Program-made: the position numbers and the translations under genes
The notes under the pieces: model-generated
What the model was told of the DNA's origin: nothing
Databases searched by the model: none
The model's input: the letters and a program-made list of their open reading frames with translations, nothing else
Assembly (NCBI GenBank): GCA_051294375.1
Contig: JBJCIZ010000744.1
Span: forward strand, 1,106,262-1,170,261
DNA length: 64,000 nucleotides
Reading direction: 5' to 3'
DNA from: Paraspadella gotoi
Taxonomy: Eukaryota > Animalia > Chaetognatha
In this document: positions 651 through 38,000 of the stretch, one piece after another
Position numbering within the stretch: position 1 is the stretch's first letter
Layout: every line of letters starts with the position of its first letter

Positions 651-731
651 CTGGTTAAAGTGTGATGGTGTCGGCATAAAAACGCCAGTGACATGGGGTG
701 GTCAGTGCAGGTCCAAAGCCCTGAGCACCAG
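651..731 (+). ncRNA. Twister ribozyme, P5-type (family A, LTR1)
   Basis: P5 CTGGT/ACCAG; GTGT-GA-TGG...TAA-AAAC-GC (one P2 mismatch); P3 CAGTGAC/GTCAGTG; P4 CAGG/CCTG; L4 TCCA-AA-GC. Predicted cleavage at 677/678. Confidence 0.75.
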
Positions 732-1090
732 ATGTCGAGAGATGCCTCACACCCCAGGCATCGCATGTCCCCCGTTGCCATAAGTGGTGAGCCTTACTAT
801 CAAACACGCAACCGCTGCGTACCGTCGCTCACGTCGTTGCTTAAGGGTGTGCATCCTACTCCTATGCCCTAATCCTCACTCACTCTCTCACTGTGGCAAT
901 GAGTCCATCTACTCTCAAGACAGTCACTCTGGGCTTGACCCCAGTGTGCTGTCTTGGGGTGGGCATGTGTGGCAAATCCTAAATTCGCCTCCCGTATAGC
1001 TTGATGAAATTCAGCTCGTCCCATTGGCTTGGACAGCTAAGTACTCATTCACCAACCATGAGTTCCGGGTTCAATCCCCTCACGGTCACG

Positions 1091-1171
1091 CTGGTTAAAG
1101 TGTGATGGTGTCGGCATAAACACGCCAGTGACATGGGATGGTCCCTGCAGGTCCAAAGCCCTGAGCGCCAG
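1091..1171 (+). ncRNA. Twister ribozyme, P5-type (family A, LTR2)
   Basis: P5 CTGGT/GCCAG; P2 GTGT/ACAC perfect; GA-TGG pairs with L4 CCA; TAA; GC/GC pseudoknot; P4 CAGG/CCTG. Predicted cleavage at 1117/1118. Confidence 0.8.
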
Positions 1172-1243
1172 CTGTCGGGAGATGCCTCACACCCCAGGTA
1201 TAACAAATGTCCCCCCTATCAAATAACTCTCTCTCCTTCTAAC

Positions 1244-4200
1244 CTTCCGTCTCCATTCTTTCGGTCCCTCGTCGTTGAAATCCTCTTCCGCCCGAACGAT
1301 CGAAGTTCTGCTCGAGTTTTATCGAGTCGATCACTCGACCGCAGCCGCCGCCGCCGCTGCCGCCGCCGCCGCCGCGGTCGTCGTCGTCCACGTCGCCCGA
1401 GGAGTAGGCGGAACCGCGGAGGCCGCGACGGGCGGCGGCGCTGAGCGGGTTGCGGCCAGATCCCCTGTCGTCGATATCGTTCGGACCGTCGAAGCCTGTG
1501 AGGGGGGGGGGAGGGCAAAATTAATTGATAAGCCTCTTATTTTCTTATTTTATATTACTCACCGTGTAGTTCTATTGTATCGCCGGCGTTGATGGGTCCC
1601 GCGCTAAACCACTCCGGCTCAGTTTCGGAAGGTTTGAACCTGAGAAAAAAGGGGTAAATGAGTATTAATTAACAACATTAAATACCTTCAAAGCAATAGC
1701 ATAACAATTTAATTATACTCATTCGGAATACGGCAATATGAAAATTAGATTTAAGGTAATACCTTCTTCTATCGTGATGTCGTCCTCCGCCGCCTTCATT
1801 CCGACCTCGACGATGATCGTCCCTCTGATCCCGCATTCCGTCTCTGTCTCGCTCTCTGTCCCGTTCCCTCTCTCTCTCCCTCTCGTCTCTCTCCCTGTTC
1901 GAGAGGCTCCTAGAAAGCGGCGGCGGAGGCGAAGGAGCCTCGCCACGAAACCCGTTGTTACTATGCATATCCCGTCGATCGTCCATCCGCCTTCCTCCGT
2001 CTCTCTCTCTATCTCTCTCCCTGTCTCGATCTCTATCCTTTCGATCGTCCCTACGATCGAACCTTCCCCCGCCGTCTCTTCGATCCCCAGACGGCGAGGG
2101 ATCTCCGTTCCCTCGATCGAGAAAAGCCGAAGTCGGTCCTCGACCGAAGTCCCTCCCACCTCCGCCTCGAAGATCGGCAAAGTCTCGATGGAACGGCTCC
2201 TTTCCGGCGCCTCCGTTTCCGGCGCGGTCGGCGTCTCGGTCTCGGCGTTGCCGCTCGTTGCGTAATTCTCTCAATTCTCGGGGACCCACGCCGCGGTCCA
2301 TCCTTTCTCCTCTGTCCCCTCTCTCTCCCCTCCCGTTCCTCTCTCCCCTCCCGTCCCTCCTCCCTTCCTCCATCAACCCTCTCCTCGGCGGCGGCTCCTC
2401 CTCTCCTCCTCCTTCTCTCTCTCCTCTTCCTCTTCCTCCTCTTTTTCCTCTCCTCTCTCCTCCTCGAGCGGGCGGCGTCTCTCCGCGCGAATCCGGCGAG
2501 GAGGCGCCGCCGCGCTGTTGTTGCTGTTGCTGCTGACGGCGCCCTTCGGCCTTGCTGTTGCTGGAGGAAGAAGAGCCTGGGTCGTTGTTGCCGTTGTTAT
2601 TGGTTCGTCGACGTTTGTCTTCGGCTTCGGAGGCGCCGCTCGAGGCTGTGGCTTGACCCTTGGGAGATTTGGGGAAGAGGACTCGAATTTCTTTTTAAGA
2701 ATCTGAACCTGATAACTTATCTCATATGTTACTCATTTAGTAAATAAAACATTGGTTCATATTCTAGTTAATTTGAAATGATTAGGTTTACGACCATATT
2801 AAAAATGGGAGAAAACTAACGCCCATCGAACCATCGACTCGCCTCCATCGAACTAAGGCCCATCAAAACCATTGACTCACCTCCCATCAACTAAGGCCCC
2901 ATCAAACCATTGACTCACCTCCATCACCTAAGCCCTCAACCTTGACTCATCCATCAACTAAGGCCCATCAAACCATTGACTCGCCTCCATCGAACTAAGC
3001 CATCAAAACCATTGACTCACCTCCATCGAACTAAGTCCCATCGAAACCATCGACTCACCTCCATCGAACTAAGCGCCCATCAAAAACCATCGACTCACCT
3101 CCATCGAACTAAGGCCCAATCAAACCATTGGACTCACCTCCATCGAATAAGCCCATCGAACCATCGACTCACCTCCATCGAACTAAGGCCATCAAACCAT
3201 CGACTCACCTCCATCGAACTAAGGCCCATCAAACCATTGACTCACCTCCATCGAATTAAGGCCCATCAAACCATCGACTCACCTCCATCGAACTAATGCC
3301 CATAAACCATTGACTCACCTCCATCAACTAAGGCCCATCAAACCATTGACTCAGCCTCCATCGAAACATAAGGCCCATCAAACCATTGACTCACCTCCAT
3401 CAACTAGCCATCGAACCATCGACTCACCTCCATCGAACTAAGGCCCATCAAACCATTGACTCACCTCCATCGAACTAAGGCCCATCAAACCATTGACTCA
3501 CCTCCATCAAACTAAGGCCCATCGAACCATCGACTCACCTCCATCGAACTAAGGCCCATCAAACCATTGACTCACCTCCATCGAACTAAGTCCCATCGAA
3601 CCATCGACTCACCTCTATCGAACTAAGGCCCATCAAACCATTGACTTCACCTCCATCGAACTAAGGCCCATCAAACCATTGACTCACCTCCATCGAACTA
3701 AGGCCCATCGAACCATCGACTCACCTCCATCGAACTAAGGCCCATCAAACCATTGACTCACCTCCATCGAATTAAGGCCCATCAAACCATTGACTCACCT
3801 CCATCGATTAAGGCCCATCAAACCATGACTCACCTCCATCGAACTAAGGCCCATCAAACCATTGACTCACCTCCATCGAACTAAGGCCCATCAACCATTG
3901 ACTCACCTCCATCGAACTAAGGCCCATCGAACCATTGACTCACCTCCATCGAACTAAGGCCCATCGAACCATCGACTCACCTCCATCGAACTAAGGCCCA
4001 TCAAACCATTGACTCACCTCCATCGAACTAAGGCCCATCAAACCATTGACTCACCTCCATCGAACTAAGGCCCATCAAACATTGACTCACCTCCATCGAA
4101 CTAAGGCCCATCAAACCATTGATCACCTCCATCGAAACTAAGGCCCATCGAACCATTGACTCACCTCCATCGAACTAAGGCCCATCGAACCATTGACTCA

Positions 4201-7200
4201 CCTCCATCGAACTCGTCTCGCTGTCGTCGGTGAGGCCTGATTTGGTGATGGCGTGACAACCTTGACCGAAGCTGCGGCGTTGAGGACTCAGCACCACGTC
4301 CGAATCTGAGGAGTGGGGGGTGGGGGGGTAAAAAGGTGAGTAATAATAAAGGCAAGGTCAAAGGTTACAATCCTTCGATTTAATTTACATATCAAAGTTG
4401 CTCAGTTGGATCGTTAAAATACATTAACATTCCACACATTTGCCTACAATACATGTCATGTCATGACGTAATCAAATAACTTTTTTAATTTTGTAATATG
4501 TTTAATAAATTCAAAACGAATAAAACAAAAACCTCTCGCTCTCTTCGTCACTCCCCAAATCTTTTTCAATCAATTACTTCTAATATCTATTCATGGAATT
4601 GAGGCGGCGAAACTAATACTAATTATTTATTTAGTATTTACCAATTTTCTGAATGTCACTAAACTTGGCCCAAAACTGCCTTCTTCCTCCTTCTCCCTTT
4701 AAACTCACCCGTCGCCTTGACTCTCTCTTTAGGATCCAAAGCTTTCCTCTTCGTCGTCGTCGCCCCCATCTCCCTCTCCAACTCCATCGCGTCGCTGACG
4801 AGGCCACGCCCTCTCACGTCTCTTCTCTCCATCAATCCGTCGGCGTTGCGAAAATCCTTCGGGGAGTCACGGTCGGGCCCGTCGGCACCGCCGCCGCCGC
4901 CGCCGCCGCGACGCAGCGAAGGACCGTCGGAGCCGCGTCCGCCGCCGCCGTCGGGGTCGCCGCCGCCTCTAGACTCCCGGTGGTGATCGCGTGAATGGCG
5001 GTCGTCGTAAGAGTTGGAAGTCTGCAGAGGGTCATCCAGTCATTGGTAACACATTATTCGACATAATAAAATCCAATATGACGTAATTTATCATCGCAAA
5101 GAATTGATTATTGCCTCCATTGTCTTCTCCCCTCTTTTTTCTGATTGACCAATCAGAGAGGAGGCTTCCCTCAGCAAACTGACGGCGGGAAAACAAAAGA
5201 GGGAACGTGATCACTTTTCAACTTACCTTCAAGAAACCAACATCAAACTCCTTATGCACGACTCGTTAGTTGTTATATTGTTTATTACCTGCCTATTCTC
5301 TGCATAATCTACCTAATTTTCATGTCTATTATCATCACCCAAACGACCCAACGTGTTCTTATGCCAATAAAACTCCTCCCATTTCTCATGTCTAATTTCC
5401 TTCGATGTGGTGGAAGTAGTGAGATTCGAACCCACGCCCGTTTCTCTTAAACCTCCGGGTATCAAAAAGGAGAAATAAAAAACACCGGACCTTTTTAAAA
5501 CTTTCTAAAAAGGGTCCTAAACCTTAGGTCTTCTGGAAAGTGCGAAGAAAATTCGAACCAATAACTCCCGAACCTTTTTCAAAAGCTGCCAACGAATCCC
5601 TAATAACCTTTAAAAATTTATCATTAACTCCCGAACCTTTTCGAAATTTTTCATGAGGCTCATACAGTGACCACGAAACCTTATAACCATTTAAAAATTC
5701 CCCCCTAAGCCCGGCCTACCTTTTCGAAAGTGCCCATAAACCATCGCTCCGGATCCCAAAAGTTCCCATCGTCGGTGAAATGATCGTCCGTGAGACAATC
5801 AGGAATCCGTTGCGCCATTGGTGCCTTGGCCAGTTCCATCAGCAACAATCTGCAAATAAAAAAAAGGAGAATCGTTTTTCAGCAACAAAGATCGAAAACG
5901 AGGTTCAAAAATTACAAGTTCAAGCAAACGATGCCGAATCTGCCCACGATCATTACAGCGGTCAGTAGATGATGTTAGATTAAAAAAATCATAGGAGTTT
6001 TTTTATGTTTTTCATTTAAACTAATTTCCACTCAAACGATTCCATCGAAACTTGATTTCCAGCTCAATCACACACTTCTTTACCCAAACACAAAACACTT
6101 CAAGCGAATCGCTCAATCCACTCGTGAGTAATTGGCGTTTAAATCTAAGAAGGATATACAAACAGACAGACATACGGATTGACGGACAGAGAGACAAGAC
6201 TTTTTTTTTACATAATTTATTATAATTCGATGTTCCGACATAATCCAAGTGTTTTACCGGCAAGATTTTCGAACCGACGTGCCGACAAAGTGGGAGCAGG
6301 AATCTGCTGCAAGCGGATCCGGCTAAAAACTTACCTCGGGTAAACTTACCTATCGTACTGATGTCTCTCCTTCCTCCAAATCTCCCGCCTCTCTTCCTCC
6401 CTCCTCTCTTCCTCCTTCTCCTCGGCGCTCTTCCAAACTTCTTCCTCGGCGTCGTCCTCTTTCTCCACGACGACGCCGTCTCGCGTGGAAAAGACGCCCA
6501 CACGAAACACGTCGCCGGATACTCCGTTTCCTCCGGCGCCGCTTTCTCCGGCGGCCGGGGCGCTGTCGTCGAAAAAGTTGGTGCCGCCGGCGCCGCCGCC
6601 GTCGCCGCCGCCGCCGCCGGAAAAGTCGCGACCTCTGACGACTTCGACTGAGGTGAAGAAATATACAAATAAAACTTCAAAAAAGTTAATTAAAGATTGC
6701 GAATAAGTTAATAATTTAAATGTTGCTGTCAATGATGGAATACGAAAAAAATATTTGGATTCAACTGCGGGGGAACGCAGTTTTTTTTTTAATACAATAA
6801 TTTATCTCGTATCTACCCTCGTTAATCTATTAACATTTCTTGTTTAAAAAATACTGTTCTCTTTTTTTAAGAAGACTTGGTAGCATTGTGTATGGTTTGT
6901 TAATGTTTGTACTGTATAAACCATGCTAGATTCGTATAAAATCCTATATATTGATAAATTAAATAATTCATATAAGCCCACCTCCTTTAAAGACGTCAAC
7001 GGTGCTGCCATCTAGAATACCAACACCGCCGCCGCCGAAGACTCCGCCCTCATTTACGCCGCCGCCGCCGCTTCCGCCGCCGTCTTCTGGACCTCGATCG
7101 GAGTCAGAGCCGTTATTCAACGAGGGGCGGGGGGAGTCGGACGGCGTCGGGGAGGCTGAGAGAGAAGAGAGAGAGAGAGAGAGATAATGAGGTAAAAAGT

Positions 7201-7700
7201 CGACAAAATGGCGGAATGTATAAACTAATAAAGATTGGAGTCCATTTTGATGAAGGAAATTAGTTAATACTACTGAAGAAAATAAACAATTAATTATCAA
7301 CATTGATTCAACAGCCTTAAAAGTTATGTCCAAAATAAGGTCCTTAATAATAAATTACTAGTCGAGCTTACCTTCATTTACATAATTTGGTTCCTTGGGC
7401 TTCGAGCACGATTCTTTGTCCCCAACGGGAACGTCCTCGTACCTAAAGCCACGAATAAAATCTTGTTTAATGTTATATAACATTAATAATTATATAACAT
7501 TATCTAACAAACATGTAAAATCGTTGTAACAAAAAAATTACATAATCATCGGTGATCAATTAATTATTAAATTAAATTAAGATTAAATTAAATTAAGATA
7601 TGGGTTACCATGTGAGCGGCGTCTCGGCCTTAGGAACGGCGAGGGGAGAATCCTCGCCGGTCGACGCGTAGGCGACGACGGAGTTCGAAGAACCCGACAT
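1244..7700 (-). CDS. EIF4ENIF1: eIF4E-transporter (4E-T) homologue, multi-exon, 3' part probably beyond the window start
   Basis: Spliced exons give the eIF4E-binding YxxxxLphi motif (QYDR|LLLMEL), then WDPERW, LDPKERVK|DSDVVLSPQRRSFGQGC and the Cup-homology motif EPEWFSAGP...DTIELH|GFD. Approximate exons: 7700-7609, 7442-7371, ~7156-6982, ~6647-6350, ~5869-5740, ~5022-4710, 4305-4202, 2658-1763, ~1640-1564, ~1495-1244. Confidence 0.9.
2820..4213. repeat. 37-bp minisatellite (~37 units) that duplicates a 4E-T exon end and its 5' splice site
   Basis: Unit CCATCAAACCATTGACTCACCTCCATCGAACTAAGGC. On the minus strand it reads ...CCTTAG TTCGATGGAG|GTGAGT... Confidence 0.95.
5408..5440 (-). pseudogene. 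3' fragment of a tRNA (Leu-like T-arm, acceptor strand and encoded CCA)
   Basis: Minus strand reads CGGGCGTGGGTTCGAATCTCACTACTTCCACCA. No 5' half of a tRNA is present upstream. Confidence 0.55.
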
Positions 7701-10112: not shown

Positions 10113-10901
10113 CTAATCGTATATCTCGATGCTGCAAGGCGCCATGTTGCAGGCGAAAGTTCCTTTTTGGCCGCAGACGCATCTCTTGCACATGTCGCGA
10201 TAAAAGACGGAACCTGAAAAGAAAAAAAAATTAAAAAATTGATCAAGATTTAAAAGGGAGCATCTCGTGCATACATTGAGTCTAAATATGACCAAATGTA
10301 ATGTCGAAAACTAAATCATCATTAAATCTGGTAAAAAAAAATAACTCTGAAATAATAAAACAAAACATTTGAGAAAGGCGAATCAAAAGGTACGAACAAT
10401 TATCCTAAGTGCTACAATATGCAAATTAGATTATTGAATTTGGAGAGGAACTAAAAGTCACAAGAGACAGAAATAATTCGAGTAAAAGTAAAGACTGACC
10501 CGGCAGGCACTGGGGACAGGCGTAGGTGGTGCAGGCGGCGCCGCTTTTGGTGCACATACAATCGTTACATCCGTCCTGACTGAAAACCTGATTTGATTTA
10601 CAAAATCGAATTATTAACTATTATTAATTAATAATTTTAAATATTATTAATTATTAACTATTTATATTTTGAATTAATAATCTTGTTGGAAGAGAAAAAA
10701 AAAAACCTCGCCGACGTGGACGTCCGATGGGCAGTAGATCGATCGCTGACGCGGCGTGAATCCCACGACGCACGACGCCAGCGACAGCATCAGTAACGGC
10801 AGAACAGGACGCAGCGACAGCAGCATCGGACGCTGTAGGGGCAGCGTTTGCGGCGTAGACGAGAAAGGCCGTCGCGTCCGGCCGGAGGCGAACATCTTCA
10901 T
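10113..10901 (-). CDS. Secreted pacifastin-like protease inhibitor precursor with two domains
   Basis: Three exons (10901-10707, ~10588-10501, ~10214-10113). Hydrophobic signal segment MLLSLRPVLPLLMLSLASCVVG, then C..CNDCMCTKSGAACTTYAC and CLPG..CKRCVCGQKGTFACNMAPC, matching the pacifastin six-Cys spacing. The start may be the ATG at 10826. Confidence 0.75.
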
Positions 10902-11829: not shown

Positions 11830-11935
<106 letters not shown>

Positions 11936-12092
11936 GAGACACGAAGAATAATATATTGGTTGTACCAAATTAAAAATTAAAAAAAAAAAAATAAAAATCG
12001 ATAACACGGGGCTGAATAAATAGTCTTGTTTTTGTTTAAAAAAAAAAAAAGAAAACAAATAGATTTTGTTCGATAATAAAAATTGGAATAAT

Positions 12093-12125
<33 letters not shown>

Positions 12126-12126
12126 T

Positions 12127-12431: not shown

Positions 12432-12469
<38 letters not shown>

Positions 12470-15400
12470 CCACCGCCGGAAAGGACCGAAGAGCCGGTCG
12501 CCGCCGCCGACGATTTAGCGTCGGCGTTGGGCCTTTGACCAAACGACTGGCCGACCGTCACGCTCGTCTGAATCGGAAAAAAAAAACAACCCGTAAATCT
12601 CATTTGCATATTGCGGTATGAGAGTAGAAGAGGTAAGAAGAATTCATTTATTTTTCAAAAAGAAATTAGCTCTCAAAATACATTCAACGAGAGAGCGAGT
12701 GAAATAGAGAGTTTTGAACTTCTAAAAAAGGAAATGTACACCCTAGTCTAAAAAAGGAAATGTACACCCTTGTCTAAAAAAGGAAATGTACACCCTAGTC
12801 TAAAAAAGGAAATGTACACCCTAGTCTAAAAAAGGAAATGGACACCCTAGTCTAAAAAAGGAAATGGACACCCTAGTCTTGCTAAAACGAAACGTTAATC
12901 AAGAAATCGAAAATGCTTCAAAAAAATGGGAAGCCCCCCCGCCCCTTCCCTCTCCATCGACCCCCCCCTCTGCTGCCCCCCTTAAAAATTCACCCACGAA
13001 CCTGGCCCCCGGCCTTCCCGTAAGGTTGCGCGGCGGCGGCGGCTGCGGCGGCGCAGTTGTTGGGGTTGTAGGCGGCGCCGAGTCCGTAGAGTTGACCGCA
13101 GTATTTCTCGTCGTCGAGATCATCCTCGAAGAAGAGGCGACGCATCTTGAAGAAGGCGGCGCCCGTGAGGAGAGAGTCGCTGCCCGCTTGGTGTTGAGGG
13201 CCTGGGAGGGGGGGGGAGGGGGAAGGAAGGGCAGAACGAGAGAGAGAGTGGGGAGGGGAGTTTATTTATCAGGCTAATCGAGTTGTAGAACTTCGTAGTG
13301 TATTTATGTTTAATACAATTATAACGTAACATTAATATTAACGTTGTTACGTTATAAAAAAGGCTGTCCGATGACTTTTTTTTAAGTTTCCGAGACAAAC
13401 GATGTTGACACACACTCTCTCTCTCTCTCTCTCTCTCACCAATCCTCTCCAGCTCTAGCTGATCGGCGACCTCTTGCAATCCGCCCTTGAGATTCTTGCA
13501 ACTTTTCATGATGTACTTGACGTCGTAGATGAGGGGAAAGAAAATACGGAGGATTTCGAAAAATTCTTCCTCGTCCTCGGGAAGGTCGACGTCCGTCAAG
13601 AGTCTGGGGGACATGGATTCATTATTAGTTTTATTAATTTTTATTAACAATAAATAATATTCTATCAAATATGCGTGAAATATTAATTTATTTTTTTTGA
13701 AAATTTATCACAATTCTTACCGAGTCTAAACCCGAAAAAGAAAAATATTTACCCCAATCTATTTTTAGATAGTATAACAATAAAATTAACAAACATATAC
13801 AATAGAATCGACTCTTGATATATCACCTATCGAATTTAATTCAAATTTAAACCATTTAACTACATTTTAATGCAACAACAAATTGACAAAAAAAAGGGGG
13901 TTTTTAAGCGAGTTCTGGGACTGAAAAGAGAGGAACTTGTCTTTCTCACCTGAGCAAATATCCAAAGTCGTATCCTGAATGGAAGGAGAGCCACTTGACG
14001 GAATCGGAAAGAACTAAGCCTGACGTCATCAGAGATTCTGCGAACTCACGCACTTCGATGCCTTTTCAATGGGGGAGAGAAGTGGACGGGTAAAGTGGGG
14101 CGGAAAGGGGGGGGGCGATGTATGGATAAAGATTGAAGACTTAAGGAAGAGGGTGGATCTCTCTCTCTCTCTAATAGATATTCTTTATCCCTCTCCCATC
14201 CTCGTCTCTGTCTCACTTTCTCCCTCTCTCTGTGTCTTTCATTCTCTCTCTCTCTCTGTCGCGCTTTTCCAACCTTGTTCCTCGTGCTTTTGAAACTGGA
14301 TGCCTGATTTCTGCAGAAGATCGATTGAGTCCTGCGCGTACATGTCTTCGTTGAGGCTGAACTTGAAGTTAAATTGGTAAGTGAAGGTCGGGGGCGTCTC
14401 TCCCTTTTCGTCCATGAAGGTCAGGCCAAGCTGGAGGGAAATACCATGTATGGTCACACAGAAAATTCACTTCATAATAACTGATATAATGACATAAAAA
14501 GTCAGTCAATGACAATAGTGACAACCTTCATTACTCTTTTGTTTTATGTTAAAAATTCGTATCAAACCATGAAAAAAATAATATGAAATACTACAATATG
14601 CAAATGATATTGGGCGATGGAAGAGCAAGAAACGTTTAATCCAACCCTAAGATCCCATTCTTCTACATAACCCACACCCCCTCCTTTGTTACTCCTTGCC
14701 ATCTGCACCTCCCAAAATCCCACTTTTCTGCACCTGGATGATTTTAAGGAGATCCACGTTGCACCTGAGGAGTTGATGTTGATAATCGGACGCGGATCGA
14801 AATTCTCCGATCGGTCGCGCCACCACACCTTGGTTCAAATGGAATGAGGTTGAGATGAATGAAATGGAATGGAATAAAGTAGAGAATGGAATGGAATGGA
14901 ATCATGTAGAGAGAGGAGTTAAATAGAATGAAGTAGAGAATGGAATGGAAAGAAGTCGAGAGAGGAATGGAATGAAGGAGAGAGAGGAGTGAAATGGCAT
15001 AGAATATAATGAGTGGAATGAAATGATCTTCTTCAGCAAAACTCGGCCGTCTAGTATTCCTTAGTCTGTCTCTATAGATCATTGGTTAAGACGAGTTTGA
15101 AAGTTAGTTCTGTGATTAGTCATCTATTTGATGTGCGAATTTTAGGACGAACAATAAAATCACATAGCCAACCAAGCCCGTCCCATTCGGTTGATTATAT
15201 TTTAGCCCATCCAAAGTCAGGAGCAAGTTAGCTTAGTTATTGAACGAATGAATTATTTTTATATTGATGGTTTTTTTACATAATATTATGTCTATTGTCT
15301 AATTGAATGAAGTCGTTAACCCCCCCCAAAACTTTGCACTGAGCAAAGTTTGTACTTTAAACAATTATTATACATTGGCTGTACCAATAAACTAACAAAT

Positions 15401-16191: not shown

Positions 16192-16438
16192 TGTGGCGAA
16201 TCCTAAATTCGCCTCCCCGATAGCTTGGTGAAACTCATGTCATCCCATTAGCTTGGACAGCTTCGTTAAACAACCATGAGTTCCGGGTTCAATCCCCTCC
16301 CGACCACGCCAAGTGTGATGGTGTCAGCATAAACACGCCAGGGACATGGGGTGGTCACTGCAGGTCCAAAGCCTTGAGCGCCAGCTCTCGGGAGATGCCG
16401 GAAATCCCCGACATCACACAAGACTCCTCGTTGCCATA
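16192..16438 (+). mobile_element. Solo LTR-like copy, family A (tRNA head and twister)
   Basis: TGTGGCG...GTTGCCATA flanked by 4-bp TSD TCGT (16188-16191 and 16439-16442). B box GGTTCAATCC. Twister core at 16313-16385 with the 5' P5 strand eroded. Confidence 0.85.
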
Positions 16439-16502
16439 TCGTCAACTAATTAGGTCATAATTTGTTGAGATTTTCGTCGAAGAAGGTTGAGCGTCAAAGC
16501 CT

Positions 16503-19122: not shown

Positions 19123-21681
19123 AACAAACCTTAGTTTGAGGTTTGACGAAAGCGACGGGGGGCGAATTGGCAAACGTAGGAGCGCCGCCGCTGACGCCCT
19201 CTTTGAATTTGCTCTCGTTTCCGGCGGCGGAGGTCGGCCGAGAGGAAGGGCCGGACGGGGAAGCGCCGGAAATCGGCGCCGTCGAAGAAAGACCGAACGG
19301 CGTCGAGGCGAAAGGAGCCGCGGAGAGGCCGCCACCGCCGGGACTCAGGGCGCCTTGGTTGGGAATTAATTAATTAATTAATTACATAATGAATTAGTTA
19401 TGTATTAAGTTGATACAACCAATATGTATTAATGCAAATGTATGGCAACCGTTTCAAAATTTACTAAGTTTTAAAGGACAACAAACTTTAATCATTTTCG
19501 TTTAAGAGTGGATAAGGCGCTAAATTGGCTGAAGACTACTATGCGTATCTTCTGTGCCCCTTCAGCAGCAATAGAACGGGTCCAGGGCTTGGAACCAGGC
19601 TTGAGGGGTTTTTCCACGCCCCAAATGCGGTTTATGGACGTCCTCACGCTTCCCGCAGTGCATGTATCTTTGAGGATGGAAATGCTCATGAGCTCAAGGT
19701 GTCATTCTCATAGGCGGGGGATGAACTTGTTGCAATGCCCGACTACAAAGACGATTTTCACCTCAACGGACTTGCGCTCACCGTGAAGGGCGACGCCGCA
19801 ATTGGGGCATCGACCGAAGGTCGTCGCCGTGGAGACGAACGGCGCCGTCAGTGGCGCCACGGAGGGAGCAGAGGCGCCGCCTACCGAACGAACCAGGGAG
19901 CGGTTAGGCCTGAGGTTGTGGGGGGGGGAGAGTAGAAGGGGAGGAGGGGAGAGAAGAGGAGGGTGAGTGGGAGAGAGAAGAGAAGGTGAAGGGGAAATAG
20001 AAAGAGAAGTTTGGGGGAGAAGACAGAGATTTGAGAGATAGAAAGAGAAAGATTTGAGAGATAGAGAAAGATTTGAGAGATAGTAAGAGAAGGTGGAGAA
20101 AGAGAGACAACAATGAATGTCTATTCCGTTGTGAAATGAGCTCTTCTGGACAGAAATATTATATTCTTCATTATACTTATCCCAGAATATTAAAAGTCAT
20201 TTGCAATTATTTTGACGAAACGTCCAAGTTTCACCCTCCCCGCCCTTCCTTCACCCCCCTACCCTCTTTCACCCCCCTACCCTTCTTCTCACCCCCTACC
20301 CTTCCTTCACCCCCTTGCCCTTCTTTCACCCCTACCCTTCCTCACCTCCCCTTCCCCACACCTTCATTCACCCCCCTACCCTTCCTTCATCCCCCCACCT
20401 CCGAATCCGGTCATCGACGCCTCGAAACATCCCGCCCCCACTTTAGGGACGCTGGTGCTGAGACTCCCCGCCGGCGACATCTGGGCGCCCGAGTGCAGCC
20501 GATGGCGGCGCCGCTCGGAGGAAGGCCGCTCATGGCGCCGTAAGGGATCGGGGAAGAGGCCGTGCGGGAACGGTGGGCGACTGGAGGATGGGGAAGGGAG
20601 TCTTTTTTCGAGGGGGGGGGGAAAGAGGGAAAGGAGTTCATTAACCACATTTGCATATTGTCGTATTTCGACCAAGTATCCAAAAGATTCTGTTCATGCC
20701 TTGAAAAGTTTAAAATTGTTATTTCACGATGGCAAATGATTAATTGATCATGTTTGTTTCTGGTTTCATCAATAGTATAATAATTAGTAATTTGATATAA
20801 TTTATTACGATAATCTCTTATCGCGCGGATCAACTTACTGGTAGACAGCGCGGGCGAGGTCGGGTACGGTAAGGGATGACCGGTCGCCATTTCGTGGAAA
20901 TGCCTGCGATGAGGCGCGGGAGATTGAGTCAGTTGTCAGAAACATTTATCAAATTATATATAATATTATGGGCGGTATAAATCACACCACCTCACGTCCA
21001 TCGTCGTTCAGCCAAACATCAGGCATCACAGGCAACCCCGCTGTTTCCATAATATTCAAATTATATTCACAAACTTTAAATTCGGCAAAATTTATCTCCG
21101 TTCGTCTAATAGATGTGATTTTTGTCCAACCTACCTTCATGCGTTCAAACACAGCCCGTCTTTCTTTTCCCAGCCACAAGCCCATCTTTCCCCATCAACC
21201 CACCTCTCTTCGTCCATCTCCAGACTGGATTCTGATTCGCTAAGATGTCGACAGAGATTCTCTCGTCTCTCCGTCTCGAGTTGGAGTTTTCGCTGAAGGA
21301 GAAAAGAGGAAGACGGGAGAAGGAAGAGGAGAGCAGGAAGAAGAGGAAAAAGAGGAAGAGGGCGGAGAGAAAGAAGAGGGGAGGAGGAAGAGGAGAAAGA
21401 AGGGGAAAAGGGGAGGGGGATGAAGAGGAGGAAGAGAGAAGGATGAGAAAATTAGAAGACGGCTTTAGAATTTTCAAGAAACGTTTAATCCAAAATCTCT
21501 TTCAAGATTTAAATTTGATCTTTTGTTGATCCAACAAGACTCATATAGCCTCCATCCAAAGCCTGTCCAAAGTCAGGGGCAAGATAGCTTATTTATTAAA
21601 TGAATGGATAATTTTTATATTGGTTGTACTAATTTCATAAGATCATTTTAAATAATCATCTCTTACACTTATTGTCCCCCT

Positions 21682-21738
<57 letters not shown>

Positions 21739-25182: not shown

Positions 25183-25237
<55 letters not shown>

Positions 25238-25602: not shown

Positions 25603-25672
<70 letters not shown>

Positions 25673-26167: not shown

Positions 26168-26212
<45 letters not shown>

Positions 26213-27053: not shown

Positions 27054-27085
<32 letters not shown>

Positions 27086-29218
27086 GATATTATTTTGGTG
27101 AACCAAATCTGTCCAATTATTAAAGCGCCGTTTTTTCTTCATATTTTTCAAATCAAAATTTGTTTTCCTTTTTTTAAATACTTCAGCTTCACTGGTCAAT
27201 TAGGAAATTCAAAGGAAAAAAAATCCACTCCTGATTCCGCCGTAATTAAAAAAAAATAATAATATTTAAAGGACGATTTATCTGCGCACAAAAAAAAATT
27301 AAATAAAAAAAAACTTGAGAAAAGATCCAACTCGGATTTTCGTCGTTTATCGAATTTCGTCGCTAAAAAAACAAAAAAACAAACATTGTCTACGTCTTCG
27401 CGTCACCAATTTCCCGCGCATCGCAAAACAACAACAAAAACACTTACAACAAGAAAAATCCAATACAAGAAAAAGGAAATGGGGAACGAGTTGGCGATCC
27501 CGGCCGGCGGAGCCTTCGGCCCGGAAGAGATCAAGAGGCTGAAGAAAAGATTCAAGAAATTGGACGCGGATGGAAGCGGAACTTTGAGCGTGGATGAGAT
27601 TATGGCATTGCCCAATGTGAGAGGGATATGGGGGGGGAAGAGGGTTTAAAGGGGGGGCTGAAAAGGAGGATTAAGGAGTAAATCGATTTTGGATAAGGCG
27701 CGAAGTGGGCTGAATTTCTTTTAACCCCTCTTGCACCCTAATGGTCATGAGGTAATCCCGGTACTTAATGGTCATGAGCTGATGGTATTACTCACCGGGT
27801 TACAACTGAAGATGTCATGCTTATAGGCGGGGTGAAGGGGACGAGGGGAAGTTGAACAGGAGGAAAGGGAAAAAAATAAAAAGAGGAAGAGAGAAAGACT
27901 TTTTTTTAAGAGAGATTGTATTTATGACACGCACTGCATCGCAATTCCGTCTTTTATTCCTTAGTTTTTCGAAATTCCTGAATGCGGCGCTAGCAGTCCC
28001 TTAGATTTGAGGTTTTTTTGTCTTAACAAATGAGCAACCAACTATTGGCAAATTATATGCAATTTCAACGTAAGTGGGACAGACATACTGACGGACCGAC
28101 CGAAAAGTGACTTATACTCGCGGCGCAACTAATTATGGGACAAAGATAAAAAGATTATAGGGATGGAAATGGGGGGAAAAAAAGAGGTCCGCAATCAGTA
28201 GATGAGAATAGAAAGAGAGCAAAGAAAAAAAAATAGAGAAGAGAAGGAAAGGAAGTAAAATAAAAACTGAAGCGGTTTGAAGAAGAAGCCGAGGACAAGA
28301 AGAAGGCGAGAGCAAGAATGAAGATCGATTCATTGAGGTTAAACTGATTTATGCCAACGGGGAGACGTGGTTGATGCCCGGCGTGTGAGACAGCTGCCGC
28401 TCAGAGCTTTGGACCTGCATTGACCACCCTATGTCACTGGCGTGTTTATACCGGCACTAACACAACTAAACAGCGTGACCGTGAGGGGATTTAACCCAGA
28501 ACTCACCCAACAAAACAAACTGATCTAATTTAATCTAAACAGATCTAATCTTCACCCAAAAACAAAATAAAAACTAATCTAACCTAAACTAATCTAATCT
28601 TAACCCATCAAAAAACCAAACTAAACTAATCTAATCTAAACTGATCTAATCTTCACCCAAAAACAAAATAGAAACTAATCTAATCTTCACCAATCAAAAA
28701 AACAAACTGATCTAAACGAATCTAATCTAAACTGATCTAATCTTTATCCAACAACAACGACCAAACAGATTGCGGAGAATCCTTTGGTTCGTCGCGTGGT
28801 CGACGTCTTCGACACAAACGGTGACGGAGAGTTGGACTTCAAGGAATTCATCAATGGTTTGGCATCTATTGCAAACAGGGCGGACAAGAACTCAAAGCTG
28901 CAATTCGCCTTCAAGTATGAGAGAAAGAGAGAGATTAAAAAGAAATTGAAAAAAAAAAGAGGGATGAGAGAGAGAGACCCTCAACTTCTCCATCAAACAT
29001 CCCCCAAAATCTTCACTCCAGCATCTACGACATCGACAAAGACGGGTTCATCACCAACGGCGAACTCTTCCGCGTCCTAAAGGCGATGGTGGGCAACAAC
29101 CTCAAGGACACGCAATTGCAACAGGTCGTCGACAAGACCATCATGATCCACGACAAGGTGAGTCGAGAAAAATTTATTCTGCGCGTCAATCCATTGGCCA
29201 ACGCCTCGTAAAACGTTC

Positions 29219-29259
<41 letters not shown>

Positions 29260-31326: not shown

Positions 31327-32090
31327 CGCGTCCGTACGGAGGGGAAATTGTCTCTCTTCCTTTTCTAGGACCGAAGTTGTCTGTCTCTAAATAGCATCTC
31401 CGACCAAAAAAAAAAAACCGGACGAACGGATTTCTACGGATTCCTTTGGTTCTGGTTAATAAATACAATATTGAATGTAATTGATAATATTTTAAGTTTA
31501 ATACCACAGTATTCAGTTTGATTTAAACATTTGGTATCGAATTTGTCATAACTTGTCACAAATAAATATTTCGCTCATTCTCGATTAAAACTATATAAAC
31601 GCGCCAAGTTAAACGCCCTGGAGCAGAAATGATAGCAAGTCTCAGCGGTCACTTTCTCAAAAAAATGTGGAAGAGTTTTCCTTTCACTGTAAAAAAAATG
31701 CCCAGTACAAAATAAGACAGTGTTGTACTTTTGATTTAAGCGAGGCACTTAATAAATTAGCGAGAGTGCGCAAGTCAAGTTTTTTTTCTTTCTGGAATGC
31801 GTCTAGTAGAAAATATAATTTTGTGCACATAGCCTAAGTTCTTTTGTTTGTTTTTTTTTTTTTTGGTACGTAAATTACCAAAAAGTAAAAAATTGACCGA
31901 ATTGATAATACGAGGTGCGAAAGAATAAATTTTATTGGACGGAATTTTTAGTCGTGAGAAAAGTTTGTGCGTGAGAGAAGATTGTGTGTGTCTTTGGTGA
32001 AAGCGCGTCGTAAATTCTTGCGACCAAAAGAGGAGAGAATCGATCCAGACCCGAAACGGCACACGAACGGCTCCAAAAACCCCCCTTTTT

Positions 32091-35000
32091 CTACCCTCCG
32101 ATCGGCGCGTGACAGAGCGGACAGTTCTTGTGCGTGGCTATCTCCTTGTCGTACGCCTTGTGCTTACAGGTGGAGCAGAGCCAGAACTCGTACGCTTGAA
32201 TGAGCGGACGTCCGCTGACTACGCAGGGCGGTACGAACTTGGCGTCGCAGTGCGGACAAACCGAGGACCAATCGGGTATGAGAGCCTCGCAGGAAGAACA
32301 ATCGACGCGATTGACTCTGGCATCTTTGGGACTGTGTTTGGTGAAGATCTCCAGCGCCAGTTCCTCGTACTGGCGCCGCTGAGCGGTGCTGAGCCCTTCG
32401 CAAGACTCGAGCCGGACGAAGGCTTTGGAGGCGGTGCCGAAGGAACGATTAGCGCAGGAGGCGAGAGCGACGAGCGAGTGGATCTTCACGGGATCGATGG
32501 AGTCTTCGTAGTCGCGAAGAACCAGCGCCGTCTTCATCGCCGCGTCCACGTAACCCGCGTGTAATTGACGCTGCGCGGTGAGGAAGAGATGATAGGCTTC
32601 GGCGCGGTGCCAAGCTCGATCCAAGATCCTCGTCTCCGTCAAAGTCGCGTCTTCCTCCAGCAGACCCTCCAGCGCGGCGGATTGGACGAAGCCGGGTTTG
32701 CGTTTGTCGCCGGCGCCGGAGGCGTCGTCGGCGACGCCGCGTTTGTGGCGGACCACGTGGGCGTGGTGCTTCTCGACGAGGAGGGCGGAGAGGACGTAGA
32801 GCTGTTTGAGGCGGAGAGGGCTGGAGGAGCCGCGCTCAACTTCGTCGTCCGCGACCTTGGGAAAACAAGTTTGGGTAGTTAAATAATTACCCGTTATATT
32901 TATTTACACCGTTTTATTTAGTACGTAAATTGTAAAATTTACGGAAATAAACGATAACTTTCAATTTTTTAAGTTATTTTACAAGCATACACCTTCTACA
33001 TTCGGTTACGATTTGAAGTTAGAATTATTAATAATTAATTATTATGATTAATAGTAACATCGTTACCAGTTATTTATTTTTTTCTAGATTCTCACTAGTA
33101 TTTTAAATTTTATAAATTACCCCCCCCCTTAGTCCCACGCTCCTCTCCAAAACCTTAAACATCAACTGGGCGGCCTTGAGATAATTGGACGCCTTGCAAT
33201 AAAGTTCGATGGCGGAGAGGGTCTTATTCTTCTCCAGCAAATGAGCGGCGTATCTCCCCAACAGCTGATCGATCTCCTTGACGTCGTGGCGTTTGGCCAG
33301 ATCGATGGCCTGGCGCCATTGATTCAGTTGGACGCAGACGTCGATGGCGTCCTTGACGCGGTCGCATTTCGCGAAGGCCGTCACAGCCTGGGGGGGGTTT
33401 CAGCAAAGGCATTGGCGGTTTAACAGTTTGATAATAGTTTGCTATGAAATTGGTATAACCAATATAAAATTAATTCAATAAATTAGCTATCTTGTCATGG
33501 GCTTTGGTGGTTTAAGGCCTCATCACACTTACAAGATAATAACATAGCAAGCTTTCAATCAATACTTCTTCACAGTCTCGTTTATTCCTGGTTTCCCTCT
33601 CAATGAAGAAATAAAATATTTCAAAGAATGTTTCAACTGTATAAAAGGACCACTCTCTTAACTTAAGAAGGGAATACAATGTTGTACTCTCGATAAGTTC
33701 ATTTGTTTACAAACAACGGGTTTTTTATTAAAAAAAAAGGACAAGTTTTGACTAATTTTCCGTCACACTTACAAGATAATAACATAGCAGGACCCTGCAA
33801 GCTTTCAATCAAGACTTTCTCACAGTCTTGTTTATTCATTGTACTTAAAACCCACTCACACCTGTTCGCACATCCCGACAGTCGAGAACATGGAGGCGAT
33901 CTCCGGCAGCAGCCTATGATTCTCGGGCAACGAGAAGACCATCTTGTCCAGCCCCTCGTAATCCTCCAACATGTAGTAACACTCGGCGATCCTCTCCTGG
34001 TTTCGCCCCTGATGATAATAAGTCACGGCCGACTGCCACTTTTGCCGATCCGCGTAGTAATCGCCGATGGCGTTCCACGCCTCCTCCAGCTGCGCGTCGT
34101 CTCCGCCCGCTCCTGCGCCGGATTTCAGCAGCTGCACCACGCGGAACCAGTCGCCGAGTTTGCGGCGAAGGGCGACGGCGAGATCGCGTCGATCCATCTC
34201 TAGATAAAGACGTTCGGCCTCGTCGAAGCGTTTGAAGTGCGCCGCCACTTCCGCCCGACGCATCTCTTCTTTCTGGAGGTTGGCCAACTTCTTGACGAAC
34301 TGAAGGCCTTGATAATCCTTGCAGCGGACGAAGGCTTGATCCGCCATCTTCAGCTCGAGCTTCTCCAACGAGGCTTCGGCCAAGAGACGCCAGAGACGAG
34401 GATGTGGATTGTCCTCGACGAACTGCGCCGCCTCCTGGACGCCCACCTTCTCCAGCAGGTCGCGAGTGTCGCGGAGAGACTTGACCTCCAACTCCAGCAC
34501 CGAGGCCTCTTTGCTGGGGTGCTCCGGATCTTTCATGATCTCGTCCAGCAGCACGGCCTTGACTTGAAGATCCTCGAAGTGGCAGATCCATCCGCTGCTG
34601 AGGATTGGCTCCTCTGGATCCAAGTTGCGGAAGACGTACATCCGGGTCTTTTCCATCATGGCGAACATCTCCGGATTATCCTCGGCCCACTTCATATCCC
34701 ACACGTCCTTTCGCTCGAACTTGAGTTGCTCTCCGTGGACCTTGGATAAGGGGGGGGGAGTGTAGGTTGTAGTTTAGCATTTCTCGGAATCCATGAAGTA
34801 ATTAATTCACAAAACATTTACTTATACCACTTATAGACGTGAACTTTTCATGACGTTCTGGTTTAGTCACGGTGTATCAAAAATATATGTATTATGTAAG
34901 TAATTTAAGTATTTAATATATATGTAATATATGTATATTTACGTATTTAAGCTTTTAATACATGTAAGTAATTAAAATATTTATTTTTAGGACTATCCAA

Positions 35001-38000
35001 AAGTAAGAGAATATGGCAACGGGAGGATAGCCTGTGATACCCGGGGCGCGGGGTATCTCACCAACTGGCGTAGGGGCTGCGGACCCTCAGTGACCGCCTC
35101 CTGTCACTGGCATGTTTATACCGGCACCGTCACATTTAAGCCAGAACCGGGATACCCAGGGATTGAACCCGGGACGCACGGATGGAATGAGATGATTTAG
35201 CCTGCTCAGCCATTGAGACGAGGCTGAGGACGGACAGCAGTGAGGCAGCTTTAAGTCTTGCTGCCACAAGAAACTCATTATTTTTTCTCTCGATTCAATG
35301 TTTGAAATAAATTCAACACTCCTGCCACCGCCACCGCCACACGCACTCTCTCTCTCTCTCTTCCTCTCTTCTCACCTCCTGCCCGCTTATATCCACCACG
35401 TGCGTGTCCAGATCGAAAAAGGTCAGAATCCCCAAATGATCGATGATCGCCAATCGAGTCGAGACGCAATTAAGACTCATCGTCTGCGGCCGAGAATTCA
35501 AAGCGTACTTCCGCTGCAGCGTTAGATGCGGGACGGTGTAACGGTGCAGAGCGCCGCTCTCCCGCGCCACAAGCAGCAGCCTGTCGCTGGCGGCGACGCT
35601 GCAGATAGGATCGTCGGTCTCCTCCGCCGCTTTGACGTAATCCAGCTCCGACTCGGGAACTCCGGACGGGATGTCGTCCACGTGATGAAGTCTCTCCGTC
35701 CCTTGACGCTTCTTTCCGCCGACGTCGCCGATCCCGTGACCCACGCGGGTCTCGCCAAGCAGACCAGCGGCTCCGCCGCGACTGCTGCCGCCTTTGGACG
35801 CTTCGGCCGCGGCGAGCGATCGATACTGCCAGGCGTAGAAAGCCTGGCGCGAAGCGACGAAGACGTGAGATCGCGTCATCGCCAGAAACACGGGCTCGAT
35901 ATCGATGTATTTATTATCGAGCGGGGTTCCGATCGCGTTGCAGAGAACGAGGACGTAAGCGCCGGGAGCTGCAGCGCCCGACGCCGCGGAGCCGTTGCCT
36001 GGCGCTGGCGCTGCTCTGGTGGCCAGAACGCAGTGATCTCCGCATGCGGCCACGCCCATGAGATTCCTGACGAACTTGATGTATTTCTCGTTATTCTTCG
36101 TGTCCCAAAAGACGACGCAATGCTCTTGTCGAGCCGGCTTGGTGTAGGAGTAGACGACCGTGTTGGCCAAGTAGCCCCACTTGTAGTCTGGACGGATGTT
36201 GGCAAAGTAGATGAAGGAGTCGACGGCCAGAGCGATGCGGAGGGAACCCCCTTCCCAGGAGCATGAGGTCACCTGGTTATAGGATATATATTTCTTTTAT
36301 TTACAGTATATATAGTTTTTAATTCAATTAATAAATAAGCTATCATGCCCAAGACATTGGACAATGGACACTGTCCATTGACAGGCTAAGGTAGGTTAAA
36401 GCCTCTCACTAGGTAATACTACATATAGCAGGACTCTGCAAGATTTCAATCAAAACTCGCTCACAGTCAAAGAGTTAAGGGAATTAATAGCCTGGTACTG
36501 TGGAAGTGAATAAACGAGACTGTGAGAGAGTCTTTGTTGAAAGCTTGCAGGAACCTGCGACGTCTAAAGCCTGTCCAAAGTCAGGGGCAAGATAGCTGAT
36601 TTAGAATAAATGGATAATTTTATATTGGTTGTATCAATTTCATATTATATAAGTAAGTATATTTTTAAACACATCCACGATCTAACCTGTTTTCCCGGGA
36701 CCTTCAACGTCCTCAGATGTTCTCCCATCGCAGAATAGAACTGCACCACGTTGATGTCTTTGTCCGCGGCGCCGGGCAAGGCACCCGCGGGCGCCCGCTG
36801 CGAGCCGGCAATGGCCAGGACGCTGCCTAATGGAAGGAAGGATTGGTTGGAAAAAGGGATAAGGTGATTGGGGAAGCAAGATTTTTAAAAAGTTTATTAT
36901 GGACACTGTCCACAATGACCAAAGTAAAATGCTCCAAGCAAAAATATCTACCTAATAAAATCTAACATGGGTTGGGGTCCAGTATCTCTTTCTCTTTATG
37001 AGTAAAGACAAAGGAAAAGTCCAAAAAATGGTCAAAAAAAGTATATTCTCTGAGAGGGAGCTCTCGAGCTGAAGTAGAACCCAAGACAGAACTAAAATCT
37101 CTCTCTTTGCTCCTTCTTCTGTCGTCACTCGATGAGGAGGGAGGGAAAGGGAGGAGGAAGAGGGAAGAGAAATGGGGGGAATCCGATGGAATCTACTCAT
37201 CCCCTCTATCCGGAAACTCAATTCAGTTTGCCCTAACACTCGGTCAAAACACACGCACTCTCTCTCTCCCTCACTCCTTCCCTCCCTCACCCGTATGATT
37301 CCACTGTATCTGGGCCACGCCCATCCCGGTGTCCAAGAGCACGGGATCGTCGTCGGCCTCGTCCCTCATAATCTGACATCGCCCGTTGTCGAAACAGATG
37401 GCGAGACACGGACAACGCGGGGCCGCGTATCCCTCCGACCCGTCGTACCACTCGATGCCCGCCAGGTGGACGGCGGAGGTGACGTCCGTCAGGCAGACCA
37501 CGCCCAGTTTGGCGACGAAGTTTCCTTGGTTGTCGAAAATCTGGACGTCGCCGTTGGTCATGCCGAAGAGGAGGGAGCGACTATCGGGAGACCATTCCAC
37601 TTTGGAGAGTTGGAGGCCTGGGGAGGAGGAGGAGGAGGAGGGAAGGGAAAATGGAAGGAGGATCCAAGTGATCACATCGCGTGAAGGAGCGATCACACAA
37701 TTATTAGATTTATGGTGGACTAAAATCCACCAACCGTTCATCAGAGGCCATTGGTGCCGGAGGCAAGTCATTCGGCTCCCAACCCAAGGGTCCGGGGTTC
37801 TAGCCAAGAGGTCGCCTAGCAGTTAAGAGGGACGGGGCGCTTAACCCGCCTGTAACACGGTGTTACAGCCTGATCCGAAGCTCAGGGACTGCTTATATTG
37901 AACGGTTCTGTCACTAACACATAATAATAATCACTGTCTCTTCAGATTGTTTTCAAGTATTCAAAATATATTTAGTATTTCTTATCTCTGTCTCTGTTTT

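What the first reader, a model, noticed from the sequence alone, without database searches (positions are those of the whole stretch)
651..35144. Compensatory substitutions across family A copies support a selected twister structure
Comparing 651-731 and 1091-1171 with the diverged copy at 35065-35144, four helices covary: P5 CTGGT/ACCAG vs CTGGC/GCCAG, P2 GTGT/ACAC vs ATGT/ACAT, P4 CAGG/CCTG vs AGGG/CCCT, and pseudoknot T1 TGG/CCA vs CGG/CCG. The GA, TAA and the two GC dinucleotides of T2 stay invariant. The layout matches the known twister core (UAA-P2-GC-P3-P4-UCCN-AA-GC), permuted to open at P5.
Basis: partly seen in the sequence, partly recalled or inferred. Interest (0 to 1): 0.85.

Follow-up and report, generated by a model that had tools for sequence, protein, structure and literature searches.

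The report
Twister ribozyme in miniature LTR retrotransposon
A 250-base repeat in a probably invertebrate genome has the hallmarks of the terminal repeat of a miniature retrotransposon and holds a twister-type RNA fold kept by paired substitutions, which likely cuts the element's transcript into unit-length RNA, a job so far described for hammerhead ribozymes in plant elements.

Summary
The covariation is real, with corrections. The copy at 35065-35144 lies on the minus strand. It differs from 651-731 by five two-sided pair changes (P5, P2, T1, two in P4) and from 1091-1171 by four, and keeps 27 of 27 pairs. Chance placement gives P about 0.001-0.002. All changes come from this one diverged copy. 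651-731 breaks two pairs and 1091-1171 one. The layout is a type-P5 twister with a 2-bp P1; it scores below Rfam's cut-offs and cleavage is untested.

The context is the larger result. Family A is an LTR: TG...TA ends, exact 4-bp target duplications at two solo copies, and a 693-bp LTR-internal-LTR element at 533-1225 with PBS-like and purine-tract sites. tRNA-type A/B boxes sit just upstream of the ribozyme. This fits Helenus-type TRIMs (Kojima 2024), which were not reported to carry ribozymes. Cutting in both LTRs would release a 440-nt monomer, as in plant hammerhead retrozymes. A sixth, sequence-unrelated P5 twister behind a tRNA-like segment lies at 37818-37893. Ten literature searches found no twister-bearing TRIM. 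Verdict: new variant of a known kind.

The parts
533..1225 (+). Full miniature LTR element (TRIM), 693 bp: LTR-internal-LTR, non-coding
   Evidence: flanks match at 3 of 4 bases only
533..782 (+). 5' LTR (copy c1), 250 bp, TG...TA ends with an imperfect terminal inverted repeat (6 of 8)
591..644 (+). tRNA-type A box (591) and B box (634), 43 nt apart; predicted Pol III promoter
   Evidence: box motifs as in PMC10886601 section 3.5
651..731 (+). Type-P5 twister fold in c1; 25 of 27 pairs; predicted cut 677|678
741..762 (+). 7-bp hairpin in the LTR 3' part; its closing pair differs between copies and is kept
785..794 (+). PBS-like site starting TGG two bases after the 5' LTR; primer tRNA not identified
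783..967 (+). Internal region, 185 bp, with a long hairpin before the purine tract; single copy in the window
   Evidence: related internal sequence joined to an LTR start in run X1
955..967 (+). G-rich, purine-tract-like stretch (9 of 13 purines) abutting the 3' LTR
968..1225 (+). 3' LTR (copy c2), 258 bp, last bases diverged; 229 of 249 aligned columns identical to c1
1091..1171 (+). Type-P5 twister fold in c2; 26 of 27 pairs; predicted cut 1117|1118
678..1117 (+). Predicted 440-nt monomer between the two cut sites (inferred, not observed)
16192..16438 (+). Solo LTR c3 with an exact 4-bp target duplication; twister core kept, 5' strand of P5 partly deleted
28350..28506 (-). 5'-truncated, decayed copy c4; two core positions changed
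35012..35268 (-). Solo LTR c5 of a diverged subfamily (181 of 240 columns identical to c1), exact 4-bp target duplication, in a WDR35 intron
35065..35144 (-). Type-P5 twister fold in c5; 27 of 27 pairs; predicted cut 35118|35117
37744..37893 (+). Sequence-unrelated second element: tRNA-like segment (37744-37816) followed by a type-P5 twister (37818-37893) with 3-pair P2 and no P1

Best explanation
Family A has the anatomy of the terminal repeat of a miniature, non-coding LTR retrotransposon of the Helenus type, and each repeat holds a type-P5 twister fold that likely cuts an RNA polymerase III transcript in both repeats to release a 440-nt monomer, which would be circularised and copied by a Gypsy-type helper. 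Shown: LTR anatomy, A/B boxes, fold and covariation. Inferred steps: (1) Pol III starts near 580 and reads through, since the sense strand of 533-1225 has no T4 (about 0.75). (2) The twister cuts at U|A in intact copies (about 0.85). (3) The double-cut monomer holds one non-redundant copy of LTR, PBS and purine tract, so it needs circularisation before tRNA-primed reverse transcription can regenerate two LTRs, as proposed for plant retrozymes (about 0.6). (4) A Gypsy integrase inserts it with 4-bp duplications.
For: Fold: 5 and 4 two-sided changes, P = 0.0009 and 0.0024, c5 27 of 27 pairs; slid-partner controls fall from 92% to 34-45% of cells paired; descriptor 4 hits versus 0 in 150 shuffles; sixth unrelated twister at 31.6 bits, rough E 1e-7. 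c5's A-to-C change in L4 is at an A-A contact where that change was tolerated in natural twisters (PMC11662667 passages); P1 is dispensable (PMC5408937 passages); P1, P2 and P4 mismatches are often tolerated (PMC5113685). LTR: exact 4-bp duplications at 2 of 2 complete solo copies, only at the homology-defined end (chance 0.0055 each); TGG site and G-rich tract at the expected places; in run X1 one contig with 35 other letters and 7 gaps spans 770-1018, and another joins 831 to 968. Size, 4-bp duplication and A/B boxes match animal Helenus (PMC10886601). No TTT in 693 sense bases against 17 AAA; P(0) = 0.028 in shuffles. The monomer folds as a circle at -154 kcal/mol, z -4.1, 0 of 60 shuffles as stable.
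Against: No cleavage, transcript or circle was observed. The two copies in the full element are themselves imperfect and 8% apart, and its flanks match at 3 of 4 bases. No copy reaches an Rfam gathering score; c5 and the sixth twister get no twister hit even at E 10. The minimum-energy folds are not the twister fold and are no better than shuffles (z 0 to -0.9); the nested twister structure is 6-14 kcal/mol above the minimum. Absence of T4 alone is unremarkable (P = 0.67), and the TTT test is not significant in c3 or c5. The PBS matches none of the tRNA ends listed by Kojima exactly. The core is no better conserved between c1 and c5 (61 of 80) than the flanking LTR parts (81 of 111, 39 of 49).
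Confidence: 0.52

Rival explanations
1. Same TRIM and active twister, but a linear intermediate: transcripts that escape cutting in the 5' LTR are cut in the 3' LTR, so the ribozyme replaces the T-run terminator of ordinary Helenus and fixes the 3' end of a roughly 100-nt R repeat for normal strand transfer.
For: Most Helenus LTRs seen in Kojima's Data S1 have a T-rich run right after the tRNA-like part (by eye); this family has the ribozyme there. Competing folds exist, including a 5-bp pairing of the cut-site strand with a downstream segment that changes on both sides in c5, which could damp cleavage. Cassandra is described as starting in the 5' LTR and ending in the 3' LTR (PMC10886601).
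Against: Both LTRs carry the same sequence from the promoter on, so nothing shown makes the first ribozyme slower than the second. The downstream segment's change is equally explained by its own hairpin.
Confidence: 0.22
2. The tRNA-plus-twister cassette is a passenger: a SINE-like head was captured into an LTR, the fold was selected earlier in that SINE, and the TRIM does not need cleavage.
For: Kojima proposes that Helenus arose by SINE insertion into an LTR. The sixth twister sits behind a tRNA-like segment with no proven LTR ends (2 candidate duplications found, 0.9 expected). Most Helenus families lack a recognisable ribozyme.
Against: c5 and c1-c3 share LTR termini and 4-bp duplications yet differ by compensated pairs, so the fold was kept during divergence inside the LTR.
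Confidence: 0.12
3. Not an LTR element: a SINE-like or Penelope-derived non-LTR retrozyme in a short tandem, like the Pol III hammerhead repeats of Schistosoma.
For: Pol III plus ribozyme in tandem repeats is known (PMC6765202 passages); animal retrozymes are described as non-LTR and Penelope-derived; c4 is 5'-truncated.
Against: Fixed 4-bp duplications, inverted TG...TA ends, no A-rich or simple-repeat tail, about 57 conserved bases upstream of the A box, and PBS/PPT-like sites; metazoan retrozymes are stated to lack LTR, PBS and PPT (PMC7761336).
Confidence: 0.08
4. The fold is conserved for another purpose or is catalytically dead, and the twister match is a relic.
For: Scores under Rfam cut-offs; 2-bp P1; competing minimum-energy folds.
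Against: Catalytic G, cleavage-site UAA and both pseudoknots are kept in 4 of 5 copies and in the unrelated sixth.
Confidence: 0.06

Closest known systems
Twister ribozyme, type P5 (Rfam RF02684, clan CL00120; anatomy from review PMC5408937)
   Same: Order P5-P2-GA-T1-P1-UAA-P2-GC-P3-P4-L4-P4-P5; both pseudoknots; catalytic G and cleavage-site A.
   Different: P1 of 2 bp with a 4-nt loop, a 7-bp P3 inserted; 19.3 bits against a gathering score of 37.6.
Helenus / TRIMp3 (Kojima 2024, PMC10886601)
   Same: Non-coding TRIM under 1.3 kb, tRNA-type A and B boxes in each LTR, PBS- and PPT-like sites, 4-bp duplications as in animal Helenus, solo LTRs.
   Different: A twister follows the B box where most listed LTRs have a T-rich run; the paper's main text has no occurrence of 'twister' or 'self-cleav'; LTR ends in TA, which is rare but present in its Data S1.
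Plant LTR retrozymes (Cervera et al. 2016, PMC4918200)
   Same: Self-cleaving ribozyme in each LTR, PBS, PPT, 4-bp duplication, no coding capacity, predicted unit-length RNA between cut sites.
   Different: Twister instead of type III hammerhead; animal host; internal tRNA-type promoter; 440-nt monomer against about 700; circles not shown here.
Twister variants at the 5' end of Perere-3/RTE non-LTR retrotransposons (Liu et al. 2021, PMC8501958)
   Same: Twister embedded in a retroelement of an invertebrate.
   Different: Those are type P1, at the 5' terminus of an autonomous LINE, with P1 formed partly by the target site; here type P5, internal to an LTR.
Schistosoma SINE-like hammerhead repeats (as reviewed in PMC6765202)
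   Same: Pol III promoter and ribozyme in a repeated unit; upstream copy drives the next.
   Different: Non-LTR, hammerhead, no PBS/PPT.

Membership tests
Twister ribozyme (type P5) | Stems P2 and P4, with termini in P5 | tested here: met
   c5 all pairs; c1 one P2 mismatch; c3 lacks part of P5
Twister ribozyme (type P5) | Pseudoknots T1 (3 bp) and T2 (2 bp) | tested here: met
   intact in 4 of 5 copies; one T1 pair changes on both sides
Twister ribozyme (type P5) | Conserved core nucleotides (catalytic G, following A, U|AA site, L4 U and A, GC pairs) | tested here: met
   kept in c1, c2, c3, c5 (c5 has a tolerated A-to-C); c4 fails at two
Twister ribozyme (type P5) | Stem P1 of at least two pairs | tested here: met
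   2 bp in 5 of 5 copies, no two-sided change; absent in the sixth twister
Twister ribozyme (type P5) | Rfam gathering score for RF02684 or RF03160 | tested here: not met
   best 24.1 of 67.2 and 19.3 of 37.6 bits; so a variant outside the curated models
Twister ribozyme (type P5) | Self-cleavage at U|A | not testable with these tools
   needs an in vitro assay
Helenus-type TRIM | Two LTRs around a short non-coding internal part, total under about 1.3 kb | tested here: met
   533-782, 783-967, 968-1225
Helenus-type TRIM | tRNA-derived A and B boxes in the LTR | tested here: met
   boxes 43 nt apart in c1, c2, c5 and 37 in c3; no cloverleaf called over them
Helenus-type TRIM | 4-bp target-site duplication (animal type) | tested here: met
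   exact at c3 and c5; 3 of 4 at the two-LTR element; c4 truncated
Helenus-type TRIM | PBS complementary to a tRNA 3' end | tested here: inconclusive
   TGG in place; by eye 9 of the first 10 bases can pair with the honeybee tRNA-Trp end in Fig. S2, one by wobble; host tRNAs not available
Helenus-type TRIM | Polypurine tract before the 3' LTR | tested here: inconclusive
   9 of 13 purines, G-rich
LTR retrozyme | Type III hammerhead in each LTR | tested here: not met
   the ribozyme is a twister fold; it works like a retrozyme but is not one as defined
LTR retrozyme | Circular and linear monomer RNAs between the cut sites | not testable with these tools
   no raw-read RNA run was listed
SINE or Penelope-derived non-LTR retrozyme | Promoter at the 5' end, simple-repeat tail, variable longer duplications, no PBS/PPT | tested here: not met

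The most novel reading that the evidence does not exclude
Animals harbour a group of Pol III-driven LTR retrozymes in which a self-cleaving ribozyme of any class sits behind the tRNA-like promoter in place of the terminator and yields a small circular RNA intermediate: twister here in two unrelated families, and a type III hammerhead, unremarked in print, in the published Synergus Helenus-2 LTRs.
Probability: 0.4. Interest if true: 0.75.

Novelty: new variant of a known kind. Interest (0 to 1): 0.6.

Why it matters
What eukaryotic twister ribozymes do is largely open; the one worked case I found is 5' processing of a LINE in Schistosoma (PMC8501958). A twister in both LTRs of a 693-bp element gives exact predicted cut sites and a predicted 440-nt product, so the role is directly testable. 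It would extend LTR retrozymes from plants and hammerheads to an animal and a second ribozyme class, join them to the Pol III TRIMs, and offer a genomic source for twister-bearing circular RNAs. These cores fall under Rfam's cut-offs, so such elements are probably under-counted.

Tried and rejected
No whole genome is held, so no genome-wide alignment or R-scape-type test. Rfam at gathering score: 0 hits in the window. ARAGORN at default: 0 tRNAs. Sequencing runs: one holder, X1, no RNA holder listed; it is contigs only and may be the source sample, so it says nothing on expression. A position-by-position variant table of the ribozyme core in X1 was not obtained; one search showed 40 of 179 variant rows. 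Family-specific patterns: 0 hits in viral and metagenome contigs. A B-box-plus-twister pattern: 0 in viral contigs and 1 in metagenomes, L001, which by eye is a type-P1 twister in AT-rich DNA with no LTR; rejected as a relative. Single-sequence folding does not recover the fold. T4 absence alone is not significant. Rfam's type-P1 reading of c1 uses a downstream segment that cannot pair in T1; rejected. No exact twister L4 motif in an LTR of Kojima's Data S1 (line breaks can hide matches; parts 2-4 and 11 not read). The c5 row picked the wrong site and was redone. Seven weak model hits at E 0.25-4.4 were not followed. Earlier-findings look-ups by place and by sequence were empty.

Full report
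Observation. BLAST and nhmmer find five copies of family A in the window: c1 533-782 (+), c2 968-1225 (+), c3 16192-16438 (+), c4 28506-28350 (-, 5'-truncated) and c5 35268-35012 (-). On an 81-column alignment I placed a 27-pair type-P5 twister structure with both pseudoknots. c5 forms 27 of 27 pairs, c2 26, c1 25. c1 versus c5 has 5 two-sided pair changes among 13 differences in paired columns (P = 0.0009 for random placement); c2 versus c5 has 4 among 11 (P = 0.0024). Random substitution left all pairs standard in at most 7 of 200,000 trials. On the sequence-only alignment of all five, 91.6% of cells pair against 34-45% for slid partners, and 5 of 500 shuffles reach the 4 two-sided pairs; the model-fitted alignment gives 5 pairs and 0 of 500 but leans towards the structure. 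The tool warns that these shuffle counts are not probabilities. The structure was derived from these same sequences, and the changes in P2, P4 and T1 all sit in c5, so this is one subfamily contrast.

Is it a twister? Published anatomy (PMC5408937, passages) requires P2, P4, pseudoknots T1 and T2, a catalytic G and the U|A site; P1 is dispensable. These are present in c1, c2, c3 and c5 (the mapping to rice twister numbering is my inference from anatomy and the Rfam alignment). A descriptor of that layout hits those 4 copies and 0 in 150 shuffled windows. The four positions that tolerate no change in the rice twister (PMC5113685, whole text) are kept in those four; c4 has changed two of them. 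c5's A-to-C lies at an A-A contact where that change did not lower cleavage in natural type-P1 twisters (PMC11662667, passages). Against: no gathering-score hit, weak twister hits for c1 and c2 (E 0.012, 0.19), none for c5, and minimum-energy folds that differ from the twister fold. A covariance model from the five cores, run without filters, found a sixth match at 37818-37893 (31.6 bits, rough E 1e-7) that BLAST, nhmmer and Rfam miss. It forms P5 (6 bp), P3 (8 bp), P4, T1 and T2 with other letters, has a 3-pair P2 with a bulge and no P1. This is the widest covariation support available here, although it was found by fitting to the structure.

What carries it. The shared ends are TGTGGC and GCCATA, an imperfect inverted repeat. 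c3 and c5 have exact 4-bp flanking duplications at the homology-defined ends and at no neighbouring offset (0.0055 each by chance). c1 and c2 are direct repeats 185 bp apart, with TGG two bases after c1 and a G-rich tract before c2; their outer flanks match at 3 of 4, and c2's last bases are diverged. A and B boxes 43 nt apart precede the ribozyme. In run X1, 279 contigs lay on 450-1350; one with 35 other letters spans the internal region into the LTR start, and another joins 831 to 968, so other two-part copies exist. At the three places where c1 or c2 break a pair, 97-98% of the contig depth carries the pairing letter, so those mismatches look like decay of single copies. X1 may be the source sample and is not independent. 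The host gene WDR35 is closest to invertebrate proteins.

Class. Kojima 2024 (PMC10886601; main text parts 1-4 of 6; supplement parts 1 and 5-10 of 11; motif searches of the whole file) defines Helenus as TRIMs with tRNA-like LTRs, PBS, PPT and 4-bp duplications in animals, probably moved by Gypsy. Family A fits, with PBS and PPT inconclusive. The text does not mention ribozymes in these elements. By eye, most listed LTRs have a T-rich run after the tRNA-like part, while two Synergus LTRs have a hammerhead-like motif there; I did not score it. Plant LTR retrozymes have a hammerhead in each LTR, PBS, PPT, 4-bp duplications and circular monomers (PMC4918200, PMC7761336, PMC5680766, PMC9695139, passages); animal retrozymes are described as non-LTR.

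Mechanism. Shown: anatomy and fold. Inferred: Pol III starts near 580 and meets no T4 in the element (TTT 0 against 3.1 expected, P = 0.028, not significant in c3 or c5). Cuts at 677|678 and 1117|1118 would free a 440-nt RNA with one complete non-redundant LTR, PBS and purine tract, which folds stably as a circle (z -4.1). Such an RNA has no terminal repeat for strand transfer, so circularisation, as in the retrozyme model, is the simplest route to a two-LTR copy (0.52 overall). The main rival is a linear RNA cut only in the 3' LTR (0.22). Passenger capture (0.12), a non-LTR element (0.08) and a dead fold (0.06) are less likely.

Novelty. Ten full-text searches returned no paper describing a twister in a TRIM or LTR retrozyme; most subscription papers, the original twister paper and Repbase are not in this library. 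Related prior art: twisters in RTE LINEs (PMC8501958, abstract and sections 3 and 17), one sentence that type-P1 twisters are enriched near plant Copia and Gypsy elements (PMC11933835), twister-bearing circular RNAs of unknown origin (bioRxiv 2022.07.19.500677, passages), and Pol III hammerhead repeats (PMC6765202). PMC10085705 (passages) reports no non-circular twister permutations. Earlier notes of this scan mention twisters in Penelope-like termini and in animal repeats; they are unchecked leads that prompted the non-LTR rival, not support. The ribozyme is a variant member of a known class; its placement behind a tRNA-type promoter in both LTRs of an animal TRIM is a new variant of known kinds. 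Interest 0.6.

Noticed in passing
window 37744-37893 (+): A second, sequence-unrelated tRNA-like segment plus type-P5 twister in a WDR35 intron; A- and B-box-like motifs 44 nt apart; a possible 4-bp duplication around 37711-37944 is within chance expectation.
   Followed up: partly
PMC10886601 Data S1, Helenus-2_SyJa-LTR and Helenus-2_SyUm-LTR: By eye these two published LTRs hold a type III hammerhead with complementary loops right after the B box, use a tRNA-Trp PBS and lack the usual T-run there; the paper does not mention it. Not scored with a model.
   Followed up: partly
window 673-677 with 742-746; 35122-35118 with 35056-35052: The cut-site strand can pair over 5 bp with a downstream segment, with a two-sided change in c5; the same segment also forms a local hairpin, so a fold switch is possible.
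   Followed up: partly
window 755-782 with 950-976: The LTR 3' end is complementary to the purine tract and LTR start (duplex -24.4 kcal/mol), which would close the predicted monomer into a long stem.
   Followed up: partly
window 32091-39681 (-): WDR35/IFT121 gene; best matches 81% to hemichordate and mollusc proteins, which points to an invertebrate animal host.
   Followed up: partly
window 47601-53408 and 58260-64000: A 5.8-kb duplication at 94% identity; segmental duplication or an uncollapsed haplotype.
   Followed up: no
window 2814-4213 and 42827-43982: Two tandem arrays (roughly 37-bp period and a shorter degenerate unit), seen as self-matches.
   Followed up: no
window 15204-15271, 21555-21640, 33443-33846, 36321-36644, 38204-38519, 41836-42089: Another interspersed family with inverted matches, MITE-like.
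   Followed up: no
L001:287-364 (-): A type-P1 twister by eye in an AT-rich metagenome contig, with the same A-U pair in T1 as c1-c4.
   Followed up: partly
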